Notes under the pieces: model-generated
What the model was told of the DNA's origin: nothing
Databases searched by the model: none
Seen by the model: only the letters and a program-made list of their open reading frames with translations
Translations under genes and position numbers: made by a program
Shown here: piece by piece, positions 2,074 to 17,765 of the stretch
Position numbering within the stretch: position 1 is the stretch's first letter
Layout: the number at the start of each line of letters is the position of its first letter
NCBI GenBank assembly: GCA_029858305.1
Contig: JAOUFI010000034.1
Span: forward strand, 1 to 22,138
Reading direction: 5' to 3'
DNA length: 22,138 bases
Source of the DNA: Candidatus Thorarchaeota archaeon
Lineage (GTDB): Archaea; Asgardarchaeota; Thorarchaeia; Thorarchaeales; Thorarchaeaceae

Positions 2074-2280
2074 TTGACTGAACCTGACATGCATGGCATT
2101 TTCTCTCGACTGACACAGATGAAATCTGCTGAAGTAATCGAACGATATGGATTCGATGACTTTCTAGCGATAGCTAGAGAGGTCCGTGAACGAGTGGGTA
2201 ATCATGTATGGTAGGAAGTAAGCTGGTAAATCATGGAATTCTATGGTTGCGATTATATGAGAACTCTTCAGATTCCGACG
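2074..2280 (+). pseudogene. Possible degraded small gene, or a 46-aa ORF (2074-2214), of unknown function
   Basis: TTG at 2074 after GGAAGG reads LTEPDMHGIFSRLTQMKSAEVIERYGFDDFLAIAREVRERVGNHVW*EVSW*IMEFYGCDYMRTLQIPT. Helical, protein-like sequence continues through stops at 2212-2214 and 2227-2229. End coordinate approximate. Confidence 0.35.
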
Positions 2281-2325
2281 ATAACCGCTATTTGGAAATT
2301 TCGACGAATACGACTGGATATTGAT

Positions 2326-2381
2326 GATAATAAAAGGAAAAGAAAAGATGCTACGGGCAATCTTATTGGTTGCCCGTGCAT
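2326..2381 (-). terminator. Hairpin plus U-rich tract terminating ssb
   Basis: Inverted repeat ATGC(T)ACGGGCAA...TTGCCCGTGCAT (2348-2381), followed on the minus strand by CTTTTCTTTTCCTTTTATT, about 40 nt after the ssb stop. Confidence 0.65.
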
Positions 2382-2419
2382 AGGTTTGTTAAATGGTGTT
2401 TATTTCTATCTTGAATGGA

Positions 2420-2989
2420 TTAGCGCCTTCGGCTTCCGCCATAGCCGCCGCTGCCGCCTCTACGGTCACGACCACCATAGCCGCCACCGCCACCGCCACC
2501 GCGTCTGTCTCCACCATAGCCGCCGCCGCCACCACCATAGCCGCCGCCGCCACCGCGTCTGTCTCCACCGTAGCCACCTCGGCCACCGCCATAGCTTCTG
2601 CGTGGGCGATCGTCTTCGTGCTCTTCAGCACTCATATCATTCTCAAGGTTGACTTCCTCAATAGCGGTCTCAGCTACTGCGAGCTCGCCATACTTGCCAA
2701 CATTAAGACGTAGATTACCTCTGAAAAGACCAGTGTAACCGTTCTTGAGTGTGTATGTGGTTCCAGGTGTAGCGTTGTCAATTGCATCGTCCCAGAGTGG
2801 TACTTGGACGCTTCCTGTCGAATCTGCTACTGTAACATCAGCAACCCTGTGGGTTTCTCCATCGTTTCTGGAAGTAACTTCGCGGACCTCGCCCGCTTCT
2901 ACTACCTTGAAAGTGATAGTAACATTCTTCATGCGTGGCTTCAACTCAGCCACTGTAGCCTCAATAGGCTCTCTTTCTTCGTAACTCAT
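2420..2989 (-). CDS. ssb: Single-stranded DNA-binding protein (single OB fold, crenarchaeal SSB/hSSB1-like) with Gly/Arg/Tyr-rich tail
   Basis: TVAELKPRMKNVTITFKVVE...HRVADVTVADSTGSVQVPLWD...TYTLKNGYTGLFRGNLRLNVGKYGEL matches the Sulfolobus-SSB/RPA OB pattern. Likely start is the ATG at 2989 (MSYEERE), not 3157. Confidence 0.9.
   Translation of the reverse strand: MSYEEREPIEATVAELKPRMKNVTITFKVVEAGEVREVTSRNDGETHRVADVTVADSTGSVQVPLWDDAIDNATPGTTYTLKNGYTGLFRGNLRLNVGKYGELAVAETAIEEVNLENDMSAEEHEDDRPRRSYGGGRGGYGGDRRGGGGGYGGGGGGYGGDRRGGGGGGGYGGRDRRGGSGGYGGSRRR
2432..2596 (-). repeat. GC-rich low-complexity coding repeat (GGYGG / GGDRRGGGG)
   Basis: Repeated GCCGCC/CCACCATAGCC units and two copies of CCACCGCGTCTGTCTCCACC, encoding the SSB tail. 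Confidence 0.85.
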
Positions 2990-3239
2990 TTTGGATCTCT
3001 CGCTAAAGCGATATGCAAGTAGTTCAAAACTGGCGTGTTCTTTTGGGGATGTACGATGCGTGAAAAAACCCTCGACAAATCCTATGTAAGAAAGCGCTCC
3101 TCGCTTGGTAGTACCTGCACGTTTTAGTAAATAACTTGTCCTTAAGAACTTGTGCACAGTGGCCCTCTAACATTTGTAAAGAAATCATTAATGATTGCTT
3201 CTAATTTAGAGGAAAGAGAACTAATCTTCGTTTTATTGG

Positions 3240-3863: not shown

Positions 3864-6134
3864 TCACTCATTCTCAGTAGCTTCCAAAAGGCCTACTACA
3901 AATGCTGTTCGAATTTCCGATTTATTGATACTTGTTTCACGGATTGAGAAATGGCCTTTCAGCGACTCTGTTAATATCCTCGCAGCCATCAGACCCAAGG
4001 AATTGCTACTATAATTCTCAGTATCAGCATTGTACATTCTAAATCGCTCACCTTGTCGAATCCATTGGCCAGGCACCTCAATGATTGTTTCCCACCAATT
4101 TGCTCCAGAGTGAACATTGTGTACTATTTCAACAGTTATGCTTCTTTCTTCAAGCGAATATTCTAGCGCACTGTATAGAATATTCAAGAAGACATGATAG
4201 AGAAGCTCATTTGCCAAGACAAGCGCATCGTCCATATCAGGTTTGAACTCGATGGTCACATTTTCAGAGAGACCCTGCTGTGTGAATGCATCAAGAGAAC
4301 TTACTATAGTAGATACAAGATTTGTAGATTGAAGCTCAATACTTGTTAGCCGCTCTGTTTCACTCAGTAATCTCACATTATTGATTAATTGCTCTGCAAA
4401 GGAGATTACTCGAGAACCATCACGAGCAACCCTTGCCCGTTGAATGTCTTCAATATCGCCCGATCCAAGCAACTCAAGAGAGGTCAAAATCATCTGGTTA
4501 TAGTTGGTTATGTCATGCTTCAATAAATCTGCCATGAGATTGGCTTTTGCCCGTGATCCTTCTGATTCATATGTTTCCTGGATATATAGCCATGCCAGAA
4601 GTGGCGGACCTGCAAGCAGTCCTACAAATAATAGACTCTCCGACACCCACCACCCAGTGCTCCAATAGATGTAATAGCTCTTGAGTATATTTGGCAAAAT
4701 CCACATAGTTAGGAAAACGACTACAAATAGATCAACTGAGCTGTGACCTCTCGATTGATTTGCAAGAATAAAGATAAGGAATGCAAGGGCTAAAATGATA
4801 ATCAGATTCGAAACTAAAAGAATGGTAGGTCCAATAGCACTATTCTGAAGTTGTGGGTATGCATCCACAACAAATATGTTAACTAGTTCGCCAATTACAA
4901 CAAACGCAACTGTGATAGCATAAACAATTGTAAGTTTTGGTATTAGGAAAGATGGCTGTACGGGTTTTGGGGGTTTTATCGTCCACCGAATAGAAACAAG
5001 CAATAGAATGAGAGTGAGTAAGCTTCCCGCAATGAAGGAAATCAGAGGCTCATTGTATGTGGGATTTTCCACCAATACTACTTGCATTATTGATAGGGTT
5101 GACCAGAGACCAAAGAGAAGAATCAATGGATAATAGTTCCAACTGAGCTTTCGCCTGGAATGCAAGTATAATAGAACAGCCATCATACCAGCAAGAGAAG
5201 CAGCGCCAATGTGGATGATAGAGAATCCGAGGATATTCGAGGGATTTACCATATCATTCAAACCCATTGACTCTATGATAATTGTAGAGAGAAATGGTAT
5301 GTATGCCATTAGCAGAAGACCGAGTCCAAGTATGTATGCCGCTCGACGTCTGAATCCTACGCTGCGCAGGTAGGGGATACACAGAGAGAGGCTCAGGACA
5401 AGAAATGATGCTATTTGTAGGGATTCTGCGAGTACCCAATCAATTGTTGTGGATAGGAGGCTAAACATGAGTACAACAGAAGCGACAATGATCATGAGCA
5501 GAGAGCTGGCAAAATATCCTATGTCAATTGGTAGTGCTTTTAGCTTGATTCTTGGGCTTAGGTACAGTGTAGCAATGATGAAAGCTATTGATCCAAATCC
5601 AAGACTCCAACCCACTCCTGTCAATATACTCGATGGCAATAGGAAACTAATTGCGTACCACAAGAAAGAATACAATGCTGGGGGGATCAGTACAATCCCA
5701 AAAACTGTTATCCAAGAGTGTTTGTTTTGTTTTATTAGTTGAGGTCGTGAATAGCAGAGGATGCACGCAAAGAATAGAAAACCAATGAGCGTGAATTCGA
5801 ATAAATCCAGAACTGCATTTGCATTTGTATACTCAATGGATGACTGGTTAAGAATGAACAGATTTTTCGCTGCACTTCCTGTATGAATAATCATCATGAA
5901 GAAAAGTGCTGATGTCATCAAAACATGTGCACGCAAGGGTTTTCTGATGTATGCAAAGACAGCAACAGCAGTAGGTACTGAAACCCAATAAGCAAGTAAT
6001 GAATGAACACTTACTCGCGTGGCTGGATTGTATGATACAATTCCTCCAGGTCCCAGGAAGAAGACTGAAGCAATGATTGACAATGGAACAAGAACAGCAA
6101 TCTTTGTAATGGTGCGCCTTTTTCCCTGCAACAA
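3864..6134 (-). CDS. Multi-pass membrane sensor with histidine-kinase-like C-terminus (degenerate HATPase)
   Basis: About 14-15 hydrophobic segments, then H-box-like DLLKHDITNYNQ and HATPase-like VLANELLYHVFLNIL...SLGL...LKGHFSI. Confidence 0.8.
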   Translation of the reverse strand: MLQGKRRTITKIAVLVPLSIIASVFFLGPGGIVSYNPATRVSVHSLLAYWVSVPTAVAVFAYIRKPLRAHVLMTSALFFMMIIHTGSAAKNLFILNQSSIEYTNANAVLDLFEFTLIGFLFFACILCYSRPQLIKQNKHSWITVFGIVLIPPALYSFLWYAISFLLPSSILTGVGWSLGFGSIAFIIATLYLSPRIKLKALPIDIGYFASSLLMIIVASVVLMFSLLSTTIDWVLAESLQIASFLVLSLSLCIPYLRSVGFRRRAAYILGLGLLLMAYIPFLSTIIIESMGLNDMVNPSNILGFSIIHIGAASLAGMMAVLLYLHSRRKLSWNYYPLILLFGLWSTLSIMQVVLVENPTYNEPLISFIAGSLLTLILLLVSIRWTIKPPKPVQPSFLIPKLTIVYAITVAFVVIGELVNIFVVDAYPQLQNSAIGPTILLVSNLIIILALAFLIFILANQSRGHSSVDLFVVVFLTMWILPNILKSYYIYWSTGWWVSESLLFVGLLAGPPLLAWLYIQETYESEGSRAKANLMADLLKHDITNYNQMILTSLELLGSGDIEDIQRARVARDGSRVISFAEQLINNVRLLSETERLTSIELQSTNLVSTIVSSLDAFTQQGLSENVTIEFKPDMDDALVLANELLYHVFLNILYSALEYSLEERSITVEIVHNVHSGANWWETIIEVPGQWIRQGERFRMYNADTENYSSNSLGLMAARILTESLKGHFSIRETSINKSEIRTAFVVGLLEATENE

Positions 6135-7303: not shown

Positions 7304-8137
7304 TCAATCGAAATGCTCCTCCAGCCAGACACCCAGAGGATCCCAGCTACCAGGTTGAAACTCTGCATGCTTTCCCCCCTCAACAACGTAGAACCGCTTG
7401 ACCTCTGACGGGACTTCCTCAAAGAGCATCTTGCAGTCCTCAACAGAGAAGAGCTCATCACAATCTCCAACACCAACGAATACTGGGATTTGCATGTCCT
7501 TTGGAAATTCCATTTGCCTGAGTGCTAGTATTCTCATAAAACGGAGAGTGTAGCGAAAATTGAATATTGGATCATCAAGACCAACTTGCCCCTCTCGTTC
7601 ATACTTGATGACTGGTTTGCTTGGATTGATAAGAGAACTCAGAAGGATTTTCATCTTTTGACCAAAGGGAATATTCTGAGCATCATTTGATTTGAGAGTT
7701 CTTGCTCCACTTAGAAGCACTACACCAGCTACTTTGTCTAGACAGTTGTTCAGAGCAATTATACTTGATAACACTCCAAGACTATGACCAAGTATAATCA
7801 CATTCTGATGACGTTCCTTTACAAATGAAACAGCTTCACAAAGATCCTTGACAAGCCGTTCTCTGCTCGGATAGTCGCCTCTTATTCCATCCGAGAGCCC
7901 GTGTCCTCTAAGGTCTAACCCGTAGACTGTGTACCCACGCTTTAAGAGAGGATTGACCAGCAGCTCATATGGTCCAGCATAGGCAGTAATTCCATGAAAC
8001 AGAAGGATAGCCGAGTTTTTACGAGGTTGATCATGAGGTTGCCAGAGCCAGACGAACAGAATCTTGTTGTCTGTGGTTTCCAACAAGCAATGAGGCGCTT
8101 CAAACTTTGACCTGAGTTCAACAACATCAATCGCCAT
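7304..8137 (-). CDS. Alpha/beta hydrolase (lysophospholipase/monoacylglyceride lipase-like)
   Basis: FHG oxyanion motif, DLRGHGLSDG, nucleophile elbow GHSLG, catalytic Asp (GDCDEL) and His (GGKH). Confidence 0.92.
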   Translation of the reverse strand: MAIDVVELRSKFEAPHCLLETTDNKILFVWLWQPHDQPRKNSAILLFHGITAYAGPYELLVNPLLKRGYTVYGLDLRGHGLSDGIRGDYPSRERLVKDLCEAVSFVKERHQNVIILGHSLGVLSSIIALNNCLDKVAGVVLLSGARTLKSNDAQNIPFGQKMKILLSSLINPSKPVIKYEREGQVGLDDPIFNFRYTLRFMRILALRQMEFPKDMQIPVFVGVGDCDELFSVEDCKMLFEEVPSEVKRFYVVEGGKHAEFQPGSWDPLGVWLEEHFD

Positions 8138-8291: not shown

Positions 8292-10841
8292 TTGACAGAC
8301 AATACTCAAGAAGACCTTAATCGTGCATTAGCTCTCTGCAAGGATGGAGAATACGAAAGGTCTCTTGAAATTGCAAAAGCGTTGGTTGCGAGCAAAGGTC
8401 CAAAGGATCCTATGATGACATTGGATGCTTTAATTCTTGAAGCTGAAATTTCATGGCGAACCGGGAAACTAGATGAAGGCCTTAGCACCGTGGAAATGGC
8501 AGAGGATTTAATAAAAACAAAAGGATTGAAACACCTAGAGAAAGGTCTTCAGGAAAGAAGAGCAAAACTCTTCTCACAAGCTGGCGTAATTCATTGGTAT
8601 ATGGGTAACTTAGATAGGGCAATGGAATATCATGAAGATAGTTTGAGGATAAGTCAGAATCTTGGTGACAAGGTAGGAGTTTCTGTAGTCTTCAATAACC
8701 TTGGTCTGGTATTATGGACAAAAGGAGACCTCGATAGAGCATCTGAATACTACAAGAAAAGCATTGCAATCTATGAAGAATTGAATGATGAAAATGGCAT
8801 ATCGAGGGTCCTTAACAATCTTGCAAATATCAGTTCAACAAGAGGAGAGTTAGACCAAGCACTTAGCTATCATCTAAAAAGTCTTGAAATCAAGAAGAGA
8901 ATCGCAAGCAAGCAGGACATAGCTACATCATTAATTAATGTGGGAGTCATCCATAGGCTGAAGGGTAATCTTGAACAAGCTGCAGAATATTACAATAAAA
9001 GTCTGACAATTCAACAGAATCTTAGTATTGGACCTGAGTTCGCTCTCGCCCTAAATAATTTAGGTGAAATCCACAATTTAAAGGGAAATCTAGATTCTGC
9101 ACTAGAGTTCTATCAACGCAGTTTTCTTATTTACGAAGCCATGGGAGCTAAAGAGGGGATTGCACTTACCCTTCTCAATATAGGTGACATTCAGAGGAGA
9201 AAGGGCAATAATGAAAATGCGTTCGAATACTACCAACGTAGCTTAGCAATCTCTGAAGGTATGGGAAATACCCGATTAATTTCTGCAGTGTTGGGAGAAC
9301 TAGTGGCATTAGCTTTGGACAGTAATGATTCAAACCTTTCAAAAGAATACTTGACCAGACTTGAGCAGGTCGATGAAAAATCAGAAAGTGCTGTTATCAA
9401 CCAGCAATTCCGAATTTCAAATGCACTAATTCTTAAACACAGCCCGCGTACCCGTGATAGAGTTAAGGCCGAGGAGATTCTTGAGAGAATAGTTAGCGAA
9501 GAAGTCGCGGATCATACATTAACAATTGCTGCAATGATTCATCTATGTGACCTATTATTGCTTGAACTCAAAGCAACTAGGGCAGATGAAGTACTAAAGA
9601 AAGTCAATGATTTGACAAAACAGCTCATGTCTGTTGCCCAAGAACAAGCCTCGCATCCACTTGTTGTAGAATCATATTTACTACAATCAAAACTTGCTCT
9701 AATTGACTTTGAAGTCAGCAAAGCAAAACAACTATTGGTGAGGGCTAAAAATCTCGCTGATGAAAAGGGATTGTTTAGATTAAGCCATATTGTTGATAGA
9801 GAGATACAAACACTCCAAAATGAATTACAAAGATGGGAATCCATCCTTGAGGAAAATCCCTCAAAACAAGAGATGGTTAATCTAACTAACTTGGATGATT
9901 TGGTAAAGCGAATGGTTCTGAAGACAGTAGAAAGTCTTGGCATAGAATCGACCGCTGAGTTGAGAAAACCAAAGTATAAACTGATACACAAGGATATGCT
10001 CGTGGGGACTGACAAGTCAGAGAGGGGCTTTTTCAGAGTGGGAATAGCACAGATGGGGCTTTCCAAGAAAGGCGACATTTTGAATGAAATTTACGAAGAG
10101 AAAGTGGATGGTCTCATAGGACTTCGAGAGGAATCGATTGAACCGACTAGAGTGAAAGTAAGAAGTATGATAGAGAAGGCTCACTCTGACGGAATCAATG
10201 TTCTTCTCTTCCCGGAAATGACTATTGACCTTAGCTATGTTCAATTAATCCAAGATTTAGCAGAGCTCGCTAAGGAATTCAGAATGCTCATTATTCCAGG
10301 ATCATTCCATGATCAAGAGTCTAAACGCAACCTATGCAGAGTCTTTAGCCCAGAAGGGATTCTCTGGGAACAGGAAAAACACATCCCTGCCATCATCCAC
10401 ATCAATGGTAAGAGATTCATGGAAAGAATAGACACTGCAACAGATGCGAAGAAAGCTATCATTTGTAACACCGAATTTGGTAGGATTGCCATTGCTATAT
10501 GTCGCGATTTTCTTGATATGGACTTAAGAGTGGAATTGAAGAACTCCGACCCCCCTGTTGATCTAGTTATCAATCCTGCGTTCACTCCGGTGACTGAGGA
10601 TTTCAAAGCCGCACATTTTGACGCAAGAAGGTCCATCTACGCCTATTGCTTCTTTGCTAATGTGGCGGAATTTGGAGAGTCACTAATCTATACACCAGAA
10701 AAGGAACGTATTGAGAGAAACATCCCGAAGGGAGAAGAAGGTATCATTTACAAAGACGTTAATCTTTTCCAACTTCGTTCTGAACGTAAAAAATGGGAAG
10801 AGTTGCAGAAGCAAAGAGCTTTCATTCAGAGTACAAGATAG
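8292..10841 (+). CDS. TPR-repeat protein fused to a C-terminal carbon-nitrogen hydrolase (nitrilase-fold) domain
   Basis: About 6-7 40-aa TPR-like repeats (NNLGxI...G.LD.ALEYY..SL.I), a helical region, then RVGIAQ, LLFPE(642), QEK(696)HIP, IAIC(737)RDF, LVINPAF and FFANVA...GES. Confidence 0.9.
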   Translation: MTDNTQEDLNRALALCKDGEYERSLEIAKALVASKGPKDPMMTLDALILEAEISWRTGKLDEGLSTVEMAEDLIKTKGLKHLEKGLQERRAKLFSQAGVIHWYMGNLDRAMEYHEDSLRISQNLGDKVGVSVVFNNLGLVLWTKGDLDRASEYYKKSIAIYEELNDENGISRVLNNLANISSTRGELDQALSYHLKSLEIKKRIASKQDIATSLINVGVIHRLKGNLEQAAEYYNKSLTIQQNLSIGPEFALALNNLGEIHNLKGNLDSALEFYQRSFLIYEAMGAKEGIALTLLNIGDIQRRKGNNENAFEYYQRSLAISEGMGNTRLISAVLGELVALALDSNDSNLSKEYLTRLEQVDEKSESAVINQQFRISNALILKHSPRTRDRVKAEEILERIVSEEVADHTLTIAAMIHLCDLLLLELKATRADEVLKKVNDLTKQLMSVAQEQASHPLVVESYLLQSKLALIDFEVSKAKQLLVRAKNLADEKGLFRLSHIVDREIQTLQNELQRWESILEENPSKQEMVNLTNLDDLVKRMVLKTVESLGIESTAELRKPKYKLIHKDMLVGTDKSERGFFRVGIAQMGLSKKGDILNEIYEEKVDGLIGLREESIEPTRVKVRSMIEKAHSDGINVLLFPEMTIDLSYVQLIQDLAELAKEFRMLIIPGSFHDQESKRNLCRVFSPEGILWEQEKHIPAIIHINGKRFMERIDTATDAKKAIICNTEFGRIAIAICRDFLDMDLRVELKNSDPPVDLVINPAFTPVTEDFKAAHFDARRSIYAYCFFANVAEFGESLIYTPEKERIERNIPKGEEGIIYKDVNLFQLRSERKKWEELQKQRAFIQSTR

Positions 10842-10845
10842 AGGA

Positions 10846-11301
10846 TTATATTTCTTTCATCAGTGAGGGAGACGAAGTACAGAGAGTTGTGAATTCAACT
10901 GATTGCTTCATATCAGATGGTATCTTGTCCCGTGTGACAATTAGAAATCCCTTTCTTTTGAAATATTCCTCAGCTGTATCAGTAAGAAGATAGAGTCGAG
11001 TGATTCCTTTCTTTTTTGCTAATTTTGTAATTTGGTCAACCAGCTGTGAACCTAATCCGGCTCTCTGAAAATCTGGGTGAACGGCAAGAGACCGAAACAA
11101 AGCTGAGTTTCCGTAGATCTCCAGACCAACAGAGCCTACAAGGAATCCCGAACTGATATCAGCTTCCGGATTTCTGATGACAAGGAAGTTCATCAAATGT
11201 GCTTCTATACCATCAGGAGGAAGGTTTGTTTCTTTCAATAGATCTACAAGCGCAGAATAGTCCGAATTCTTCGCTTTTTCAATCCTAAGATTTCTTGTCA
11301 T
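10846..11301 (-). CDS. GNAT N-acetyltransferase, ArsN2/ArgA-like
   Basis: LP.DG, GSVGLEIYGNSALFRSLAVHPDFQRAGLGSQL, LYLLTDTAEEYF..KGF and C-terminal SVEFTTLCTSS..M match the ArsN2-type family pattern. Confidence 0.82.
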   Translation of the reverse strand: MTRNLRIEKAKNSDYSALVDLLKETNLPPDGIEAHLMNFLVIRNPEADISSGFLVGSVGLEIYGNSALFRSLAVHPDFQRAGLGSQLVDQITKLAKKKGITRLYLLTDTAEEYFKRKGFLIVTRDKIPSDMKQSVEFTTLCTSSPSLMKEI

Positions 11302-11415: not shown

Positions 11416-12213
11416 ATGATAGATATTAGACCGATGAAACTGGAGGATTGGGAAGAGCTTCATATGATTGATGTTGAAATCTTCCCAGATGATCCTCTCG
11501 AGGAAGAGTCATTCCGAAAATGGTTAGGACGAGATGGGTGTTTTGTACTCCTTCACGATGATCAGATTGCTGGACATCTGATTGTTGCTCGATTCGGTCA
11601 AGACGAGGGACATCTTGGAAGGATTGGCGTAGCAAAGGCTCATCAAAAGAGAGGTTTTGGCTCAGTACTTATGGAGTATTCCATTAATTGGTTTCAAAAG
11701 CAAGGCGGAATTAGGCAAGTCCATCTCTACACTCAGGATTTCAATTTATCAGCTCAGTCATTGTACAAGAAGTATGGATTCGAAAAGACAGGCACAACTT
11801 GGCATTTCTTCGTTCCCTACAATTCTGTTAGTCTCAGGCACGAATACTCCTGTCAAACGATTCAGGATGATGAGATTGAGTTTGTGGGAGAGAAATTCCC
11901 AGAATTGCCAGCAAAACAAATTCGTAGATACCTTTCAGACGAAGAGTACATTGTCTTGACACTCAAGGACCATAATGGCAACATCGAAGGTGCCTGTCGA
12001 TTCACTCCATCTTTTCCAGGCTGCTTTCCGTTCAAAATCACCCATACTGACTGCTTTGACGATTTTATCAACGGCATGAGGGAGTTCAGTCTTCCAGAAT
12101 ATGATTATGTCCGAGCGACTTTCACGGATCTGCCTGAGCTCGCGAAACTCTGTGAATCAAGAAACTACAAGCTGCATCATAGGCTCTTCAAGATGTCACT
12201 TTCCCTTGAATGA
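11416..12213 (+). CDS. GNAT N-acetyltransferase with an extra C-terminal domain
   Basis: Acetyl-CoA motif IGVAKAHQKRGFGSVLM and N.SAQSLYKKYGF. The roughly 130-aa C-terminal extension may be a degenerate second GNAT. RBS-like GTGAGG upstream. Confidence 0.85.
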   Translation: MIDIRPMKLEDWEELHMIDVEIFPDDPLEEESFRKWLGRDGCFVLLHDDQIAGHLIVARFGQDEGHLGRIGVAKAHQKRGFGSVLMEYSINWFQKQGGIRQVHLYTQDFNLSAQSLYKKYGFEKTGTTWHFFVPYNSVSLRHEYSCQTIQDDEIEFVGEKFPELPAKQIRRYLSDEEYIVLTLKDHNGNIEGACRFTPSFPGCFPFKITHTDCFDDFINGMREFSLPEYDYVRATFTDLPELAKLCESRNYKLHHRLFKMSLSLE

Positions 12214-12368: not shown

Positions 12369-14708
12369 CTAAGTTCGGCTTTTCTTCAATATCACCAAAA
12401 GCACAACAACCACGACAACAGCTACCCCAGCCCCTATTATAAGTAGCAGCGTTGTCGGGAGTCCACCATCTATTTGAGCAGTTACTGTAATGGTGACATC
12501 TTGGTATGCAATGTGGCCAAAGATGTCAGATACTTCAATGCGAATTGTGTACTCACCAACTGGTAAATCAGTGATGCCAGTCAGTGCCCCATTAGAATCG
12601 ATAGCAAAATTGACTGTATCATTAACTGCCCATCCAGTTATACCCGAAGGATCCATAGCTGTATAATGTTCAGATACTCTATCACCAAGTACGATACTGA
12701 TGTGACTTGGGCCAACAAGAGATGGAGGTGTGAGGTCTTCTACATCTGCTGTAGTAGAATTGCCCATTGAGTGGCCGGAGATGTGGTAGACCACTAGTTC
12801 GACTGTATGTACTCCGTGTGCGAGTCCATCAGCTAGAAACTCTATGTCATTACCGTCCCATTCTTTTACACGAACACTGGAACCGTCAACAAACACTTCG
12901 TAATGCGAAGGATTCAAGGCATATGCCTCCCAGACAATCACATTATCTGTCTCAAGTATCTCGAATTCAATTGGTCCAGGTCGCTCAAGATCCAAGCTTC
13001 TAGATGGAAAGAGATCCTGTTTGTCAATACCAGTATCCGTGGTGATATTATAGTATCCAGTGTAGTTGTAATTATGCCACCAATTGCCTATACTCACATT
13101 ATCATGCCAGAGAATATACATTCCGTAGAAAGTATTTGTCTCATATGCATTCATTGTGTTCCAACCAATGTCATTACCATAAATTGAGCAGTTACCACTG
13201 GAATGTATGTAGATACCATAGTCGTTATCAAAGACTATGTTGTCAGTTATGTTCGAACCGATATTAACGATATAGAGTCCATAATCACAGAGATATACTA
13301 TATTCATGGAGTAACTGTTGTTATAGCATTCAAATGAACCAATACCAGTTTCACAATTGTAGATCTTATTCCCCACAAGTTCATTCCTGTCACCCTCGAA
13401 AATAATTCCATAATCCGAATGATTGTATATCTGATTACTCGTAATGTTGCAGTCATGATATCCCACAAAGTTAATGCCAGCATAATTATTATTATGGATG
13501 ATGTTATCTTCAATCGTTAGATATTGATAATCTGCTCCACCCATTCCATAAATTCCATTTCCGATATTATTGAAGATCTGATTATTGGAAATCTGAATTC
13601 GTTCAGAATAACTGATAGTAATCCCATTTAGCGTATTGTTCCAAATTATATTACCAGAGATTGTCCAATCTATATCATTGTCCAGATAGACTCCACCCAT
13701 AGCACTAGGTGTCTGTGGCCACCAAGCATTACCATGAACGTCGTTCTGTATGATTGTTCCATTAGTTGAATATTTCACATCAATACCGTTGTCTGAGTTG
13801 TCGTAGATCTCATTATCAAAGACATGCGACCAATAAGAAGAATCAATGTGAATGCCGTTCTCTTCGTTGTGGTAGATCTCATTTCCAACGATAGATGCAT
13901 GATCTGACTCTTCGATGTACACCCCAGCCCAAGACCCCGTGCCGAGAGCATTATCGTGGATTATATTTTCTTCAATTGTAGTATACGGTGATACAAATGC
14001 TGCAATGCCACTCATCCCGCAATGGGATATGTGATTGCCATTTATAGTGACATAATATGATTCCTCAACAAATATTCCTTCACCAGTTGCAGAATTAGTT
14101 ATCACATTATAGGAAATCAGTGAGTTATTACATTGGTTAAAATATATTCCATCATTTGTGTTATCGTAGATATCACATTCGGTAATTGTTGCACCAGTGC
14201 AGTTGAATAAAGCAATGAGATAGTTATCATGAATAGTGCAATTCTCAATGTACGGTGCTGAGGTGTCACGTAATTCCATTGAGTTCTGTTTGTTTTGAAT
14301 TACAGTGTCTACAATAGCCGCTTGAGTTACATTATCGATGTGTATTCCAGTACCACTACTACCTGAAATGCTAGAGATGTAGCAGTTCCGAATCTCAAAA
14401 GCTCGGACAGTATCACGAATCTCGATACATGTTCCATCTGAGGTGATATTGTACCCGTCAATGATGTATGGTGTATCAGGGGATCCATTGCCGTCCCACA
14501 ATAGAGCAGAAGCCCAATTGTCCATGTCAGTGTCATTGTAGGCCAAGATAGGAGCCTGTTCCACATAAGAGGGCACATTGACCTTTGTTGGGATTGGTGA
14601 AATTGCAGCCTTTTCTTCGTTATTAATGGCGGGATGTAGAATCCCTGCCAGAAATAAAGGGATTACAAGTAAAATTAGAAGTAGTAGCGCTTTCCTTGCG
14701 TGCTTCAT
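12369..14708 (-). CDS. Secreted, membrane-anchored right-handed parallel beta-helix (NosD/CASH-like) surface protein with Ig-like C-terminal domains
   Basis: N-terminal signal peptide, GNGSPDTPYII cap, many I.GN.IY.N...GI repeats, beta-rich domains (GEYTIRIEVSDIFGH), C-terminal TM plus KKSRT, and many N-x-S/T sequons. Confidence 0.88.
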   Translation of the reverse strand: MKHARKALLLLILLVIPLFLAGILHPAINNEEKAAISPIPTKVNVPSYVEQAPILAYNDTDMDNWASALLWDGNGSPDTPYIIDGYNITSDGTCIEIRDTVRAFEIRNCYISSISGSSGTGIHIDNVTQAAIVDTVIQNKQNSMELRDTSAPYIENCTIHDNYLIALFNCTGATITECDIYDNTNDGIYFNQCNNSLISYNVITNSATGEGIFVEESYYVTINGNHISHCGMSGIAAFVSPYTTIEENIIHDNALGTGSWAGVYIEESDHASIVGNEIYHNEENGIHIDSSYWSHVFDNEIYDNSDNGIDVKYSTNGTIIQNDVHGNAWWPQTPSAMGGVYLDNDIDWTISGNIIWNNTLNGITISYSERIQISNNQIFNNIGNGIYGMGGADYQYLTIEDNIIHNNNYAGINFVGYHDCNITSNQIYNHSDYGIIFEGDRNELVGNKIYNCETGIGSFECYNNSYSMNIVYLCDYGLYIVNIGSNITDNIVFDNDYGIYIHSSGNCSIYGNDIGWNTMNAYETNTFYGMYILWHDNVSIGNWWHNYNYTGYYNITTDTGIDKQDLFPSRSLDLERPGPIEFEILETDNVIVWEAYALNPSHYEVFVDGSSVRVKEWDGNDIEFLADGLAHGVHTVELVVYHISGHSMGNSTTADVEDLTPPSLVGPSHISIVLGDRVSEHYTAMDPSGITGWAVNDTVNFAIDSNGALTGITDLPVGEYTIRIEVSDIFGHIAYQDVTITVTAQIDGGLPTTLLLIIGAGVAVVVVVVLLVILKKSRT

Positions 14709-14903: not shown

Positions 14904-17765
14904 ATGAAGAAGGTCAATCTGAGCAAGAGTGGAAGTATACAGAGACTGACTGCAATTGCAGTTTCCGCGATAATCATCATCTCATCATTTCTAATGTTTG
15001 ACGGTGCACCAATCATACCTGGTAATTCAATCTTCGATTCCACTACTCCAAGAAACATCAGATCCGATCATCCAACAGTACTTCGAGGAGATGCGATTCC
15101 CAGCTCAAATGGAGGAAACTGGATAGATCTGGGTATACCTTCAGTAGTAGGAACTCCAGCAGAAATCTTTGTTTCTGTTTCAAATGAAACTGGGATTACT
15201 GTCATTTCCAACATCTACGGATTTTGGTATGGTAATATTACCTATAATAACTCAAAATTCAACACAATTGATCTTCCTGCAGCTTCACCTAGAACTATTG
15301 TGGGACAGCCACAAATTCCTCGTTTGACATTCACAGTGGAAGTACCAAGTGATGTCGATATTACAATCAATATTCTAAGTGCATCGTCGGTAACTCTTGG
15401 AGGATACAACATTACTCCAACGCAGATCCCTTCAGTTGGTCTAAATGACAGAGTGATGCCCCTGTTTTCAATCAATGCAACTACGTACTCTTCAGATTTG
15501 TTTTATCCAAACTATAACTTCACCCTTAATGGTCAAAGTTCACTATCTCCGATAGTTCTTCGTGGTAGAAGATTGTTACAAGTCTCTACATTTCCAATTC
15601 AAGCCAGCCCGGGTTCAGGGCAACTGAAAGCATATACTCAATTCGAAATTCGAATCAATTATGACCACGTTGCACAAATAGAACCTGTAGATGTTTCGTT
15701 GGTATCAAATGCATTTGAGAGTCTATACCAAAGGATTCTGTTGAATTACCGACCATGGGTAGCTCCTACTGCAATAACCACAACACCATCAATAACAATA
15801 CCTCCAACAACTTCAGAGATCACAAATACCTATTCCAGCCCTGGTGCTCTTTCCGTTGAGAATTTCATCCCAGCTGAGGAATCAAATTCTGGAGAGCCAC
15901 ATTATCTTATCATTTATTATGATGAGTTTTTAGAACACGTACAAAGACTTGCAGACTGGAAAACTCAGAAGGGGATATTCACACACTTGGTACCTACTTC
16001 AGATATATTTGTCGGAGTAGATTCTGTAACTGGAGAATACTTTGAGTATACTGACGAAAATGGCCTAGCAACTCATGAAAGCAGAATTGCCGATCTGAAA
16101 ACCTACATTGATGATACTGTTCTTCGTATGACTCCAGTTCCAACGTATATTCTCCTCTTTGGAGATGCCAGTCACATTCCATGTGACTATAGTTCTGTGG
16201 AACATACCGCTGGACGAGTAGATCCATCTGCTGGAATGGGCTATCATGGAACTGAGGCTCATGCGAGGATAGCTACAGACGTCACCTATTTCTGTGTTCA
16301 AGGTGATGACTTCCTTCCGGAGTTCTACCATGGAAGAATTTCTGTCGAAAGCAATGTTCAAGCAGGATACATTGTAGACAAGATAATCGCATATGAGCAA
16401 CAGCTTAATGACCATGATACATTCTATAATGATATATTGGTATCCTCATTTTTCGATGATTGGAGAGAACCAAATCCTAATCCGGTAGATGTGAATCAAG
16501 ATGGTGAACCAGACGATCCATGGATATATGGATCTGATGGAATTAGTGATGAGCCGTATATTTCTACAACAGAGGAAATCTATAACGCCTTTATTGATAA
16601 TGGCTATGGGTACTCAATACATAAGAATTACGCCAGATACTCAGAAGCGGATTTTCCACTAACACTCTATAACGGAGATTCTGTCAGCACGATTGAATGG
16701 GGAACTAGTCCGACTTGGAATCCTCCCTCACTTGGCGCAACCACTGATGACATTAGAAACAATATTCTTGCTGGAAGATTTTTGATGTATCATATAGATC
16801 ACGGAGTGTCAGGCAACTATTTCAATTACCTCAATGAGCAAGATAATTCTGATAATCTTCCGCGGAGAGAATATGAGGGATGGGATTTCCCAGCTTTTAT
16901 GACAACAGATTTTGGTGGTCTTGAGTGCTTGCCGACAGATCCAGATTATGAAAGTAATCTTGGAAAATACCCGTTGATCCTGAGTATGGATTGCAATACT
17001 GGCTGGTTTGATGGTGAAACCGATGGATTTATCGATGAAACTCTTGCATTTCAGACATACTACATCTATGATTGCTTTGCTGAAGAAATCCTCAGAATTC
17101 AAAACGGGGGAGCTGTAGCAGTGATAGCTCCAACTCGAATCAGTTACAACTTGAGAGCTTCGGGTTTAATGAAAGGAATTACGAATGCCTTTTGGCCAGA
17201 TTTAGAACTTGTAAATGTCGCATATCCGGAAGATACCGAACCACCAATAAACAATCTTGGTATAGCTCTCTACTTAGGAAAATACTATATTGAGAACTCC
17301 ATTGTAGATGAAACAGTAGACGAAGATGATATTGTCTACGAAAAAGGAGATATTACCAATCTAATTTATCAATTATTTGGAGATCCTGAAACGTCACTCT
17401 GGACAGAACAACCAACTACTCTTCAGGGAGATCACTCACCTGTTGTATGTATTGGTTCTCAAGACTATAGCATCAGAGTATATGACGAATATGGTCCTGT
17501 TGAAGGAGCTAAGGTATGTCTATACAGGCACCCCGATATCTACGAGATAGAATACACCAACTCAACAGGCTATGCTGTATTACATATCGGAAATTCTGAT
17601 GTAGGTAGAGTACAAATCACCATCACCAAACTGAATTCGAAACCATATATTTCGTCATTTACCTTAGAGTGGATCCTTTGTCCTCCAGTTATCACTTTCA
17701 TAGGTGCAGGGATTCTCATTGTTGGTGTAGTGATTGTTTTGATTATGATGAAAAGGAAGAGGTAA
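14904..17765 (+). CDS. C25 family (gingipain-like) cysteine peptidase with propeptide and C-terminal membrane anchor
   Basis: Signal/TM, C25 propeptide (GQPQIP...VEVP, YP, LRGRR), catalytic-domain motifs YLII, LADWKTQKG, YILLFGD, TD.TY..GDD..PE..GRI, HIDH(633)G, MDC(697)NTG, GGAVAVIA and LFGDP, then an Ig-like domain and TM plus KRKR. Confidence 0.92.
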   Translation: MKKVNLSKSGSIQRLTAIAVSAIIIISSFLMFDGAPIIPGNSIFDSTTPRNIRSDHPTVLRGDAIPSSNGGNWIDLGIPSVVGTPAEIFVSVSNETGITVISNIYGFWYGNITYNNSKFNTIDLPAASPRTIVGQPQIPRLTFTVEVPSDVDITINILSASSVTLGGYNITPTQIPSVGLNDRVMPLFSINATTYSSDLFYPNYNFTLNGQSSLSPIVLRGRRLLQVSTFPIQASPGSGQLKAYTQFEIRINYDHVAQIEPVDVSLVSNAFESLYQRILLNYRPWVAPTAITTTPSITIPPTTSEITNTYSSPGALSVENFIPAEESNSGEPHYLIIYYDEFLEHVQRLADWKTQKGIFTHLVPTSDIFVGVDSVTGEYFEYTDENGLATHESRIADLKTYIDDTVLRMTPVPTYILLFGDASHIPCDYSSVEHTAGRVDPSAGMGYHGTEAHARIATDVTYFCVQGDDFLPEFYHGRISVESNVQAGYIVDKIIAYEQQLNDHDTFYNDILVSSFFDDWREPNPNPVDVNQDGEPDDPWIYGSDGISDEPYISTTEEIYNAFIDNGYGYSIHKNYARYSEADFPLTLYNGDSVSTIEWGTSPTWNPPSLGATTDDIRNNILAGRFLMYHIDHGVSGNYFNYLNEQDNSDNLPRREYEGWDFPAFMTTDFGGLECLPTDPDYESNLGKYPLILSMDCNTGWFDGETDGFIDETLAFQTYYIYDCFAEEILRIQNGGAVAVIAPTRISYNLRASGLMKGITNAFWPDLELVNVAYPEDTEPPINNLGIALYLGKYYIENSIVDETVDEDDIVYEKGDITNLIYQLFGDPETSLWTEQPTTLQGDHSPVVCIGSQDYSIRVYDEYGPVEGAKVCLYRHPDIYEIEYTNSTGYAVLHIGNSDVGRVQITITKLNSKPYISSFTLEWILCPPVITFIGAGILIVGVVIVLIMMKRKR

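What the first reader, a model, noticed from the sequence alone, without database searches (positions are those of the whole stretch)
8292..10841. TPR sensor array fused to a nitrilase-fold enzyme with an intact catalytic triad: candidate ligand-gated effector system
Seen: about 570 aa of TPR/helical scaffold followed from about 10023 by a complete carbon-nitrogen hydrolase domain with E642, K696 and C737, an unusual ICRDF nucleophile context, and a roughly 25-30 aa insertion after the first strand. Established: housekeeping nitrilase-family enzymes are usually stand-alone, whereas nitrilase domains appear as fused modules in anti-phage proteins (e.g. the RT-nitrilase DRT1), and TPR arrays are the sensors of Avs/STAND proteins. 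Inference: the TPRs bind a peptide or viral protein and gate an amidase/deamidase output, making an Asgard signalling or defence effector with no NTPase switch (I see no Walker A).
Basis: partly seen in the sequence, partly recalled or inferred. Interest (0 to 1): 0.8.

Follow-up and report, generated by a model that had tools for sequence, protein, structure and literature searches.

The report
TPR-fused defence-type nitrilase in Asgard archaeon
This gene encodes a long helical-repeat "sensor" arm tethered to an intact nitrilase-type enzyme that is most closely related to the nitrilase effectors of bacterial anti-phage systems, and the same enzyme module is attached to many different sensor domains across Asgard archaea, so it looks like a portable, regulated output enzyme whose substrate is still unknown.

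Summary
ORF 8292-10841 (+) encodes 849 aa: a helical/TPR solenoid (about 1-520), a roughly 40-aa low-confidence linker, and a nitrilase-fold domain with E642, K696 and C737 (C-R-D-F context). There is no Walker A.

It is not a chimera. Full-length orthologues occur in 14 of 24 same-genus genomes.

The roughly 290-aa nitrilase module forms a tight clade, at least 43% identical, with a sharp gap to the next relatives at 31% or less. It is found in 94 of 301 sampled Asgard genomes and in some Myxococcota and Acidobacteriota. It is joined to at least seven partner architectures: TPR, a ~1280-aa helical protein, FIST, protein kinase, Arf-like GTPase, beta-helix, and alpha/beta-hydrolase with or without a STAND ATPase, where it sits between Walker A and Walker B.

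Its nearest outgroups match PADLOC's RT-associated and CARF nitrilase models (47-48 of 60). Three ordinary nitrilases of the same genome do not.

No conserved partner gene and no defence neighbours were found. The paralogues are old and stable.

Best reading: an accessory, input-gated nitrilase effector. A conflict or defence role is slightly favoured over non-viral signalling. Substrate and trigger are unknown. Interest 0.6; a new variant of a known kind.

The parts
8292..10841 (+). Whole gene: TPR-nitrilase protein, 849 aa, TTG start, TAG stop
   Evidence: Orthologues of 848-882 aa without stops in 14 of 24 same-genus genomes. The N-terminus aligns from residue 2 in 35 relatives.
8292..9851 (+). 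Helical solenoid, residues 1-520. Canonical 40-residue TPR_12-type repeats lie at about 85-345 (motifs at 105, 145, 185, 225). Less canonical MalT-like helical repeats run to about 520.
   Evidence: Pfam TPR_12 1.1e-43 and TPR_MalT 214-496. Regular motif spacing. AlphaFold2 helices 4-520, mostly pLDDT above 90.
9843..9965 (+). Flexible linker, residues 518-558
   Evidence: pLDDT below 50 over 518-558 in the full-length model.
9966..10838 (+). Portable nitrilase module, residues 559-849. It starts with the KYKLIHKDML strand and ends with FIQSTR.
   Evidence: BLASTP shows 66-69% identity over 557/561-849 to proteins with unrelated N-termini. AlphaFold2 domain model has pLDDT 95 and pTM 0.92. Nitrilase-superfamily fold with VIA Z 24-27 (rmsd 2.6-4.6 A, 216-249 residues aligned) and Foldseek E down to 5.5e-18.
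10053..10127 (+). Insertion of about 25 residues (588-612) between strand 1 and helix 1 of the nitrilase fold
   Evidence: Secondary structure of the model. Pfam alignment begins at residue 614 = profile position 12.
10215..10217 (+). E642, catalytic Glu (FPEM)
   Evidence: Invariant in A4 and A2; at least 90% in A3.
10377..10379 (+). K696, catalytic Lys (EKHIPA)
   Evidence: Invariant in A2, A3 and A4.
10422..10424 (+). E711, invariant Glu. Candidate fourth residue of a Glu-Lys-Glu-Cys tetrad (inference only).
   Evidence: Invariant in 35 TPR-nitrilase proteins and in 7 bacterial members. Its geometry was not checked.
10500..10508 (+). C737-R738-D739: nucleophile Cys in the family-specific ICRDF motif
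   Evidence: Invariant in A4. C is invariant in A2. Aligned to ICYDM of mouse Nit2.
10812..10838 (+). C-terminal tail QRAFIQSTR. IQSTR is invariant and the tail is low-confidence in the models.
   Evidence: I845-R849 invariant in A4. FIQSTR in the consensus of A1 and A5. pLDDT 34 for the last residues in the full-length model.
10846..11301 (-). GNAT acetyltransferase (151 aa), convergent, 5 bp after the stop codon. A frequent but not universal neighbour.
   Evidence: Pfam Acetyltransf_7 1.2e-11. Adjacent to the TPR-nitrilase gene in 6 of 21 loci, 5 of them from the same genus.
11416..12213 (+). Second GNAT acetyltransferase (265 aa), part of the same accessory block in the genus
   Evidence: Pfam Acetyltransf_1 4.8e-19. 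Present in 6 of 21 loci. An orthologue is missing in 4 of 5 same-genus genomes that lack the nitrilase gene.

Best explanation
The gene encodes a stand-alone, accessory sensor-effector protein. An N-terminal TPR solenoid of about 520 aa is the input. It would bind a protein or peptide ligand and has no NTPase switch. A flexible linker of about 40 aa tethers it to a catalytically competent nitrilase-superfamily module with the Glu642-Lys696-Cys737 triad. This module belongs to a tight, portable family. Asgard archaea, and some Myxococcota and Acidobacteriota, attach it to many different input domains. Its nearest relatives are the nitrilase effectors of RT-based (DRT1, UG5/DRT11) and CARF-based defence systems. 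I propose that the input domain controls the assembly state or unmasking of the nitrilase module, as in DRT1. There, oligomerisation switches the enzyme on and a C-terminal tail acts as a lid. Here the invariant, disordered FIQSTR tail is the candidate lid or interlock. Once active, the enzyme would hydrolyse a C-N bond in a substrate that is not yet known, giving a stress or conflict response. Antiviral or abortive-infection defence is the leading candidate role. What is shown: the architecture, the intact triad, the fold, the clade affinity, the portability of the module, and the accessory distribution. What is inferred: gating by the TPRs, assembly-dependent activation, the role of the tail, and the biological role.
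For: Architecture and triad. Fold: AlphaFold2 pLDDT 95; nitrilase superfamily at VIA Z 24-27 with 216-249 residues aligned; Foldseek E down to 5.5e-18. Disordered linker 518-558. Clade affinity: P0001 and P0002 hit PADLOC CARF_nitrilase (6e-13), RTasNitrilase (2.6e-12), RT_UG5-nitrilase (3.7e-10) and Drt1a (1.8e-4). The three ordinary CN_hydrolases of the same genome (Pfam 160, 125 and 111 bits, against 38.7 for this domain) give 0 hits, 10.9 bits and 0 hits. Of 60 nearest non-family representatives, 48 match RTasNitrilase, 48 match RT_UG5-nitrilase and 47 match CARF_nitrilase, but only 30 match Pfam CN_hydrolase. They include nSTAND3 (3) and HEAT (5) fusions. In the tree, the housekeeping enzymes are split off with support 96 and the family forms a 43-row clade with support 99. 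Portability: the module is 60-70% identical across TPR, ~1280-aa helical, FIST, AAA_16/abhydrolase, kinase, Arf and beta-helix architectures. Accessory distribution: 14 of 24 same-genus genomes and 94 of 301 phylum genomes with E of 2.5e-27 or lower; 1-8 copies per genome. One genome keeps the flanking GNAT block but lacks the gene. Single-gene system: no partner is conserved across 31 archaeal and 14 bacterial loci. Literature, passages read: the DRT1 nitrilase is the effector, needs tetramer assembly and has a C-terminal lid, and its substrate is unknown (PMC13275509). Mutating the nitrilase Cys abolishes UG5-large protection (PMC13436386).
Against: No experiment and no direct computational result links the TPRs to control of the enzyme. 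None of 10 neighbouring genes has a real PADLOC defence hit; there are only weak generic TPR and Csa3-HTH matches. No relative was confirmed on viral contigs (0 of 10 pattern matches). Tandem paralogues are old: 42-51% identical in the N-terminal part and 63-80% in the module. They have clear orthologues between genomes at 74-76% N-terminal identity, which is not the rapid diversification typical of immune receptors. The gene lies in a block that is syntenic within the genus. Many fusion partners are classical signal-transduction modules (FIST, Ser/Thr kinase, Arf-like GTPase, and a histidine kinase on the sister scaffold). The PADLOC matches are weak (37-46 bits) and cover only the nitrilase part of those models.
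Confidence: 0.45

Rival explanations
1. Non-viral signal transduction. The nitrilase module is an output domain of Asgard regulatory proteins, in the same logical position as a histidine-kinase transmitter or a GGDEF domain. It would make or destroy a small-molecule amide in response to cellular or environmental cues sensed by the TPR, FIST, GTPase, kinase or alpha/beta-hydrolase inputs.
For: The partner domains are typical signalling modules: FIST and FIST_C (P0091), Pkinase (P0126, 7.6e-12) and Arf. The closest non-nitrilase relative of the TPR scaffold carries HisKA and HATPase_c (P0310, 35% identity). Paralogues are old and stable, with orthologues between genomes. There are no defence neighbours. 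The module is very strongly conserved, with 34 invariant columns across 35 representatives.
Against: The nearest relatives outside the family are overwhelmingly PADLOC-type nitrilases: 47-48 of 60. Distribution is patchy even among 97-99% complete genomes of one genus. STAND-ATPase fusions are typical of conflict systems. No nitrilase-fold signalling output has been described, as far as my searches show.
Confidence: 0.35
2. Ordinary metabolic amidase, for example an omega-amidase-like or carbamoylase-like enzyme, that merely carries a TPR scaffold for complex formation or localisation. No gating is involved.
For: The best solved-structure matches are metabolic enzymes: mouse Nit2 (E 3.7e-6 by sequence; VIA Z 26.7), P. 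horikoshii amidase and carbamoylases. The bacterial members fuse the module to a second hydrolase (alpha/beta-hydrolase), which could indicate a two-step pathway. GNAT acetyltransferases are frequent neighbours.
Against: The genome already has three conventional CN_hydrolases. This domain scores only 36-39 bits on PF00795 and matches no NCBIfam nitrilase or amidase equivalog. It separates from the housekeeping enzymes in the tree. Structural Z-scores are tied across all nitrilase branches, so they say nothing about the substrate. It is absent from 10 of 24 same-genus genomes. The variety of regulatory partners is hard to explain for a pathway enzyme.
Confidence: 0.12
3. Assembly chimera or decaying gene: the TPR and nitrilase halves do not belong together, or the gene is not functional.
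For: None found. The genome is a 205-contig assembly at 88.9% completeness.
Against: The same 848-882-aa frame without stops is found in 14 other genomes of the genus, and dozens of 90%-identity clusters come from independent sources. Catalytic residues and 81 other columns are invariant across 35 relatives. GC content is uniform across the junction.
Confidence: 0.02

Closest known systems
DRT1 (class 3 UG/Abi reverse transcriptase-nitrilase; PDB 9yfd)
   Same: C-terminal nitrilase domain with an intact catalytic centre used as the effector of a single large protein. The domain here matches PADLOC Drt1a and RTasNitrilase models and, weakly, chain 9yfd (E 0.27). Both have a conserved C-terminal tail after the nitrilase fold. 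The substrate is unknown in both.
   Different: No reverse transcriptase, no alpha-helical-repeat-plus-RT arrangement and no protein-primed DNA. The input here is a TPR solenoid. The host is archaeal. Sequence similarity is low (17-46 bits). Assembly, lid function and defence are proven for DRT1 (PMC13275509, passages read) and are only inferred here.
UG5-large / DRT11 RT-nitrilase and RT-associated stand-alone nitrilases
   Same: Nitrilase of the same broad clade (PADLOC RT_UG5-nitrilase 3.7e-10, RTasNitrilase 2.6e-12). In UG5-large the catalytic Cys is required for function (PMC13436386, passages read).
   Different: No RT partner, either fused or adjacent.
CARF-nitrilase (type III CRISPR-associated candidate effector; PADLOC PDLC01989)
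   Same: This is the best-scoring defence model for the domain (6e-13). The logic is the same: a sensor domain fused to a nitrilase output.
   Different: The match covers only profile positions 215-391, the nitrilase part. There is no CARF domain, and no CRISPR-Cas genes lie in the window.
Avs / STAND NTPases with TPR sensors
   Same: A TPR (MalT-like) array serves as the presumed sensor on a single-protein sensor-effector. Sister architectures of the same nitrilase module do contain an AAA_16 STAND ATPase plus TPR (P0058, P0123).
   Different: This protein has no NTPase domain or Walker A. The effector is C-terminal and the TPRs are N-terminal, the reverse of Avs.
Nit2 / omega-amidase and other branch enzymes of the nitrilase superfamily
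   Same: Same alpha-beta-beta-alpha fold and the same Glu-Lys-Cys triad.
   Different: 13-22% identity. There is a 25-residue insertion after strand 1, a C-R-D rather than C-Y-D or C-W-E nucleophile motif, an extra N-terminal strand and an invariant FIQSTR tail. It is fused to a 520-aa solenoid and separates from the housekeeping paralogues in the tree.

Membership tests
Nitrilase (carbon-nitrogen hydrolase) superfamily, PF00795 | Profile match above the curated cut-off | tested here: met
   36.5 bits against a cut-off of 23.2, residues 614-830; 38.7 bits in the genome scan.
Nitrilase (carbon-nitrogen hydrolase) superfamily, PF00795 | Glu-Lys-Cys catalytic triad in register | tested here: met
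   E642, K696 and C737 fall in the three invariant columns of 60 distant relatives and are invariant in 35 close ones. ICRDF aligns to ICYDM of Nit2.
Nitrilase (carbon-nitrogen hydrolase) superfamily, PF00795 | Four-layer alpha-beta-beta-alpha fold | tested here: met
   Model pLDDT 95. Foldseek E 5.5e-18 to 2w1v. VIA Z 24-27 to all branches, 216-249 residues aligned, rmsd 2.6-4.6 A.
Nitrilase (carbon-nitrogen hydrolase) superfamily, PF00795 | Homo-oligomer (dimer or higher) required for activity | not tested
   No homo-oligomer prediction was run. The requirement is taken from passages of PMC13275509 that cite Pace and Brenner.
DRT1 / class 3 UG-Abi RT-nitrilase | Reverse-transcriptase domain fused or adjacent | tested here: not met
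   No RT family among the Pfam hits of the protein or its neighbours. The PADLOC RT_UG5-nitrilase best stretch spans residues 335-813 against profile positions 446-855, which is downstream of the RT part of that model.
DRT1 / class 3 UG-Abi RT-nitrilase | Nitrilase domain of the RT-associated type | tested here: met
   RTasNitrilase 2.6e-12, RT_UG5-nitrilase 3.7e-10, Drt1a 1.8e-4. The three housekeeping nitrilases of the genome give none or 10.9 bits.
DRT1 / class 3 UG-Abi RT-nitrilase | Anti-phage protection that depends on the nitrilase Cys | not testable with these tools
   Needs an experiment.
CARF-nitrilase | CARF sensor domain | tested here: not met
   The match to PDLC01989 covers only profile positions 215-391 of 457. 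No CARF family in Pfam.
Avs / STAND NTPase | P-loop NTPase (NACHT, NB-ARC or AAA_16) with Walker A | tested here: not met
   No NTPase family in Pfam. No GxxxxGK[ST] or GK[ST] motif.
Avs / STAND NTPase | TPR sensor array | tested here: met
   TPR_12 1.1e-43 and TPR_MalT 1.5e-22.
Asgard/Myxococcota portable nitrilase module (family defined here) | At least 43% identity over about 270 aa, ICRDFLDxDLR and NPAFTP motifs, C-terminal FIQSTR | tested here: met
   43-row clade with SH-aLRT 99.

The most novel reading that the evidence does not exclude
The nitrilase module is a common executioner or output domain of an Asgard sensing network that works by co-assembly. Proteins with quite different inputs all carry nearly the same module: TPR, a STAND ATPase with the module inserted inside its P-loop domain, Arf-like GTPase, Ser/Thr kinase, FIST, beta-helix and alpha/beta-hydrolase. 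When triggered, they would nucleate a shared nitrilase oligomer or filament whose enzymatic activity is the signal or the kill switch. That would be an NTPase-optional, enzyme-filament analogue of TIR or death-fold assemblies, found in the closest archaeal relatives of eukaryotes and shared with myxobacteria.
Probability: 0.12. Interest if true: 0.85.

Novelty: new variant of a known kind. Interest (0 to 1): 0.6.

Why it matters
Nitrilase domains have only recently been shown to be effectors of anti-phage systems (DRT1, UG5/DRT11), and what they hydrolyse is unknown.

This family widens the picture in four ways:
- The same kind of nitrilase is used without any reverse transcriptase or CARF domain.
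- It is used in archaea.
- It is attached to at least seven different input architectures.
- In one architecture it is inserted in the middle of a STAND ATPase domain.

That makes it a natural system for asking how a nitrilase is switched on and what its substrate is. Two cultured bacteria, Labilithrix luteola DSM 27648 and Sandaracinus amylolyticus, carry simple two-domain versions that could be studied directly.

If the role is defence or programmed growth arrest, it adds a widespread single-gene system to the still thin catalogue of Asgard immunity. If it is signalling, it would be a new class of output domain.

Tried and rejected
1. Intramolecular docking of the TPR arm (1-520) on the nitrilase module (557-849) with complex prediction. 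The verdict was 'no answer' (score 0.00, controls not run). This is no evidence either way.

2. Conserved partner gene. I clustered ORFs from 31 archaeal loci and 14 bacterial loci. Nothing is conserved beyond within-genus or within-family synteny. The GNAT neighbour occurs in 6 of 21 TPR-nitrilase loci only.

3. Rosetta-stone link to the adjacent alpha/beta-hydrolase (7304-8137). It shares only 22% identity (E 1e-6) with the fused hydrolase of P0058 and is not syntenic in any of the 9 same-genus loci. I treat it as coincidence. The same applies to the NosD beta-helix gene at 12369-14708.

4. Effector swapping on the same TPR scaffold. Of 87 hits, 74 carry PF00795 by my count of the listing. 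Of the 13 without, P0011, P0131 and P0170 matched the module. Several others are partial. P0299, P0302 and P0309 appear to be TPR-only, and P0310 has a histidine kinase. There is no set of alternative toxic effectors.

5. Viral contigs: 10 pattern matches, none confirmed.

6. Structural neighbours as a guide to substrate. All nitrilase branches tie at Z 24-27, so this is uninformative. DRT1 (9yfd) did not appear in these lists, and the fold library ends in April 2026.

7. Tree. The first attempt, with the mixture model, did not finish in 288 s. I reran it with LG+G4 in quick mode, with SH-aLRT support only. Of 151 rows with an hmmsearch hit, 117 covering at least 170 model positions were kept and 34 fragments were dropped. 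My automatic 'FAM' label was wrong for 12 short outgroup rows, because they had been used to train the extraction HMM. The true family is the 43-row clade.

8. Row selection for the alignments. A1 used 35 of the family representatives; I left out fragments and rows under about 490 aa. A2 used 60 of the non-family rows P0186-P0262; fragments and the list tail P0263-P0272 were left out.

No earlier notes were seen.

10. Literature. Searches found no paper describing this Asgard family. Supplements were not consulted, so a census table in a defence-system paper could list it without my seeing it.

11. The Pfam/PADLOC cap (12 of 12) was reached. Because of that I ran no defence-gene scan of the relatives' neighbourhoods.
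Full report
OBSERVATION. The window has one long frame at 8292-10841 (+): TTG start, 849 codons, TAG stop. Pfam finds strong TPR families over roughly residues 50-500 (TPR_12 1.1e-43, TPR_MalT 214-496). It also finds a weak but above-threshold carbon-nitrogen hydrolase match at 614-830 (E 4.4e-9, 36.5 bits against 23.2). NCBIfam gives only sub-threshold TPR matches and no nitrilase or amidase equivalog. There is no Walker A.

E642, K696 and C737 (codons checked) fall in the only three invariant columns of an alignment of 60 distant relatives. They are invariant in 35 TPR-nitrilase proteins, together with E711 and R738-D739-F740. phmmer aligns ICRDF to ICYDM of mouse Nit2.

An AlphaFold2 model of residues 575-849 is very confident (pLDDT 95, pTM 0.92) and has the nitrilase-superfamily fold. 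Foldseek gives E 5.5e-18 to 2w1v, and VIA Z is 24-27 with 216-249 residues aligned across all branches. In the model, strand 1 is followed by about 25 extra residues (588-612) before helix 1. That agrees with the Pfam alignment starting only at residue 614, so the reported insertion is real.

The full-length model (pLDDT 83) shows a continuous helical solenoid to about residue 520 and a low-confidence linker at 518-558. An extra strand at 562-568 then leads into the enzyme domain.

NOT A CHIMERA, AND PART OF A FAMILY. A word-indexed search with the C-terminal 275 residues returned 858 proteins. TPR-nitrilase proteins of about 850 aa, 66-100% identical in the module, come from many independent sources. 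The sources that name them mostly label them Thorarchaeota, and also Hod-, Loki-/Promethearchaeota and others.

Unexpectedly, the same module at 66-73% identity also ends proteins with quite different N-termini:
- Proteins of about 1275 aa with only helical or TPR-like hints (P0077, P0086).
- A FIST/FIST_C protein (P0091).
- Proteins of about 1090-1105 aa that combine AAA_16, TPR and an alpha/beta-hydrolase (P0058, P0123).

A census of 35 representatives also shows beta-helix/NosD (3), protein kinase (2) and Arf-family GTPase (2) partners.

The module has sharp, constant borders, from KKY.L.Y.DLL to FIQSTR. In P0058 it lies at 144-433. That is between the Walker A motif (GEAGIGKT, 51-58) and a Walker-B-like LLFIDD (about 480-485) of the AAA_16 domain, so it is a domain insertion rather than a terminal fusion (motif names are my reading of the printed sequence).

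HOW ISOLATED IS THE FAMILY? An exhaustive phmmer search of 1.84 billion cluster representatives found only 304 proteins at E of 0.001 or lower, and 46 at 1e-30 or lower. Full-length family members reach down to 43-44% identity (E about 1e-62). Below them there are only fragments, and then a jump to 31% identity or less (E 3.5e-15 and weaker).

The lowest in-family branch is bacterial: alpha/beta-hydrolase plus module, about 570 aa, including Sandaracinus amylolyticus WP_053232411.1. A pattern scan of 185,579 species genomes with that bacterial sub-alignment confirmed 212 loci. Of the best 80:
- 17 are labelled bacterial: Kofleriaceae, Polyangiales, Labilithrix (including the L. luteola DSM 27648 chromosome), Acidobacteriota/Thermoanaerobaculia, Anaeromyxobacteraceae, Desulfococcaceae, SAR324, and single WOR-3 and Nanopelagicaceae bins.
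- 58 carry Asgard labels.
- 4 are 'uncultured archaeon'.
- 1 is Bathyarchaeota.

WHICH NITRILASES ARE ITS KIN? PADLOC models for CARF-nitrilase, RT-associated nitrilase and RT_UG5-nitrilase score the domain at 6e-13, 2.6e-12 and 3.7e-10, better than Pfam's general model. As a control I took the three conventional CN_hydrolases of the same genome (Pfam 160, 125 and 111 bits). They give no PADLOC hit, 10.9 bits (E 0.026) and no hit.

Of 60 nearest non-family representatives, 48 match RTasNitrilase, 48 match RT_UG5-nitrilase, 47 match CARF_nitrilase and 29 match Drt1a. Only 30 reach E of 0.001 or lower on Pfam CN_hydrolase. They include true CARF-nitrilases (best E 5.5e-202) and fusions to nSTAND3 (3), HEAT (5), LRR and TPR.

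A quick maximum-likelihood tree was built (120 rows, LG+G4, SH-aLRT only). It separates the three housekeeping enzymes from everything else with support 96. It recovers the family as one 43-row clade with support 99, lying among these PADLOC-type lineages.

The caveats are that the scores are modest, the tree is a quick one, and only three housekeeping sequences served as contrast.

DISTRIBUTION AND CONTEXT. The window's own genome (3.04 Mb, 205 contigs, 88.9% complete) has a single copy. In 301 genomes sampled across the phylum, 109 have a match at E of 0.001 or lower. Fifteen of those are weak (E of 5.9e-12 or higher), which leaves 94 genomes with E of 2.5e-27 or lower. These are concentrated in four or five of 30 families.

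Within the window's genus, 14 of 24 other genomes have the gene. It was not found in genomes rated 97% and 99% complete. Copy number ranges from 1 to 8. The ~1280-aa form often stands in tandem arrays of three or four (L029, L030).

Those tandem paralogues are not hypervariable. They are 42-51% identical in the N-terminal 1000 residues and 63-80% in the module. They have clear orthologues between two genomes (74-76% and 80-86%).

In the genus the gene lies in a recognisable block. It is followed by a convergent 151-aa GNAT gene and a 265-aa GNAT gene in 5-6 of 10 loci counting the window. The upstream side varies. Across 21 TPR-nitrilase loci from several families, the small GNAT is adjacent in only 6. 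No gene is conserved next to the family across 31 archaeal or 14 bacterial loci.

Four of five same-genus genomes that lack the nitrilase gene also lack the GNAT orthologue. The fifth (G251) keeps the GNAT block, but unrelated genes sit where the nitrilase gene would be. The gene is therefore an accessory, single-gene unit at a variable junction.

None of 10 neighbouring proteins in the window has a meaningful PADLOC hit. No relative was confirmed on viral contigs.

THE SCAFFOLD. Searching with residues 330-560, the less canonical part of the solenoid, returns 87 proteins. By my count of the listing, 74 carry a precomputed PF00795 hit. Several of the other 13 are partial, or matched the module in other searches. 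P0310 (35% identity) carries HisKA and HATPase_c in place of the nitrilase. So this TPR arm is essentially dedicated to this enzyme, and its nearest alternative output is a signalling domain. In this system the enzyme is constant and the sensor varies.

MECHANISM. What is shown:
- A catalytically complete nitrilase-type domain of the clade used as an effector by RT- and CARF-based defence systems.
- A flexible tether connecting it to a large TPR solenoid.
- The enzyme module recurring on many input domains.
- An accessory distribution.

What is known from the literature (passages read): in DRT1 the nitrilase is the effector, is active only in an oligomer and is held shut by a domain-swapped C-terminal tail. 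In UG5-large the nitrilase cysteine is required for protection. In neither case is the substrate known.

By inference, I propose that the TPR arm binds a protein or peptide cue and thereby controls the assembly or unmasking of the nitrilase module. The invariant tail (IQSTR is invariant in 35 of 35; pLDDT 34 in the full-length model) is the candidate lid or interlock. Because the tail is equally conserved in architectures without TPRs, and even when it is internal as in P0058, it more likely serves the enzyme than acts as a TPR ligand.

One family member (P0155) has Asp in place of the catalytic Glu and Gly in place of the Cys. This suggests occasional non-catalytic, perhaps regulatory, paralogues.

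ROLE. Evidence for a conflict or defence role:
- Clade affinity to defence-type nitrilases.
- STAND fusions.
- Patchiness.
- Single-gene sensor-effector logic.

Evidence against, or favouring ordinary signalling:
- No defence neighbours.
- Old, stable paralogues.
- Strong module conservation.
- Signalling-type partners (FIST, kinase, Arf-like GTPase, histidine kinase on the sister scaffold).

I put defence or conflict at about 0.45, non-viral signalling at about 0.35, plain metabolism at about 0.12 and artefact at about 0.02.

COMPARISON AND NOVELTY. It works like DRT1, UG5 and CARF-nitrilase in that a sensor is coupled to a nitrilase effector. It is a member of none of them, because it has no RT, no CARF and no NTPase (membership table). 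My literature searches found no description of TPR-nitrilase proteins or of this Asgard/Myxococcota module. Supplements were closed and could hold census entries. I rate it a new variant of a known kind, interest 0.6. The family-level picture is more interesting than the single gene: a portable nitrilase output on at least seven architectures, including insertion into a STAND P-loop domain. Function remains untested.

Noticed in passing
P0058 and P0123 (relatives; not in the window): The ~290-aa nitrilase module is inserted inside an AAA_16 STAND ATPase domain. It sits between Walker A (GEAGIGKT, 51-58) and a Walker-B-like LLFIDD (about 480-485), and is followed by TPRs and an alpha/beta-hydrolase. 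An enzyme domain nested in a P-loop domain is unusual and suggests nucleotide-state control of the nitrilase.
   Followed up: partly
L029 (G192:C1:152000-171900) and L030 (G121:C33:141000-160900): Tandem arrays of four and three ~1280-aa paralogues that all end in the module. N-terminal parts are 42-51% identical, modules 63-80%, and there are one-to-one orthologues between the two genomes.
   Followed up: yes
P0155 (534 aa, relative): This family member has FPD instead of FPE and INGRDF instead of ICRDF. Both the catalytic Glu and Cys are replaced, so it is probably a non-catalytic paralogue.
   Followed up: no
window 7304-8137 (-) and 12369-14708 (-): An alpha/beta-hydrolase (Hydrolase_4, 2.5e-31) and a NosD-type beta-helix protein (1.5e-66) lie within 2 kb of the gene. 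Both domain families are fused to the same nitrilase module in other organisms. Neither neighbour is syntenic in related genomes, so this is probably coincidence.
   Followed up: partly
P0310 (730 aa, relative of the scaffold): The closest non-nitrilase relative of the TPR/helical scaffold (35% identity over 330-560) carries HisKA and HATPase_c. It is a TPR-histidine kinase with the same input arm.
   Followed up: no
L059 (Labilithrix luteola DSM 27648 chromosome) and P0163 (Sandaracinus amylolyticus WP_053232411.1): Cultured myxobacteria carry a two-domain alpha/beta-hydrolase plus nitrilase-module protein (about 570-580 aa, 44% identical to the Asgard module). This is an experimentally accessible entry point. 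The sharing between Asgard archaea and Myxococcota/Acidobacteriota is itself unexplained.
   Followed up: partly
L110, L116, L119 (relatives): Contigs binned as Nanopelagicaceae, Bathyarchaeota and WOR-3 carry Asgard-like modules (39-41% to the bacterial query, like the Asgard rows). This could be mis-binning or horizontal transfer.
   Followed up: no
window 14904-17765 (+): A 953-aa peptidase C25 (gingipain-type) protein with a C25 propeptide domain (1.1e-41 and 5.8e-9). It is conserved in the same block in 4 related loci.
   Followed up: no
window 2233-3157: This is the GC-richest kilobase of the window (0.483 against about 0.40). It holds overlapping ORFs on both strands. The minus-strand ORF (2420-3157) has an Ssb-like OB fold (1.5e-15), and the plus-strand 139-aa ORF has no family.
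   Followed up: no
window 18374-19837 (-) and 3864-6134 (-): A second, MalT-like TPR protein (487 aa) and a 756-aa protein with a weak HATPase_c match (2.5e-4, below the cut-off) lie in the same window. Whether either relates to the TPR-nitrilase protein was not examined.
   Followed up: no
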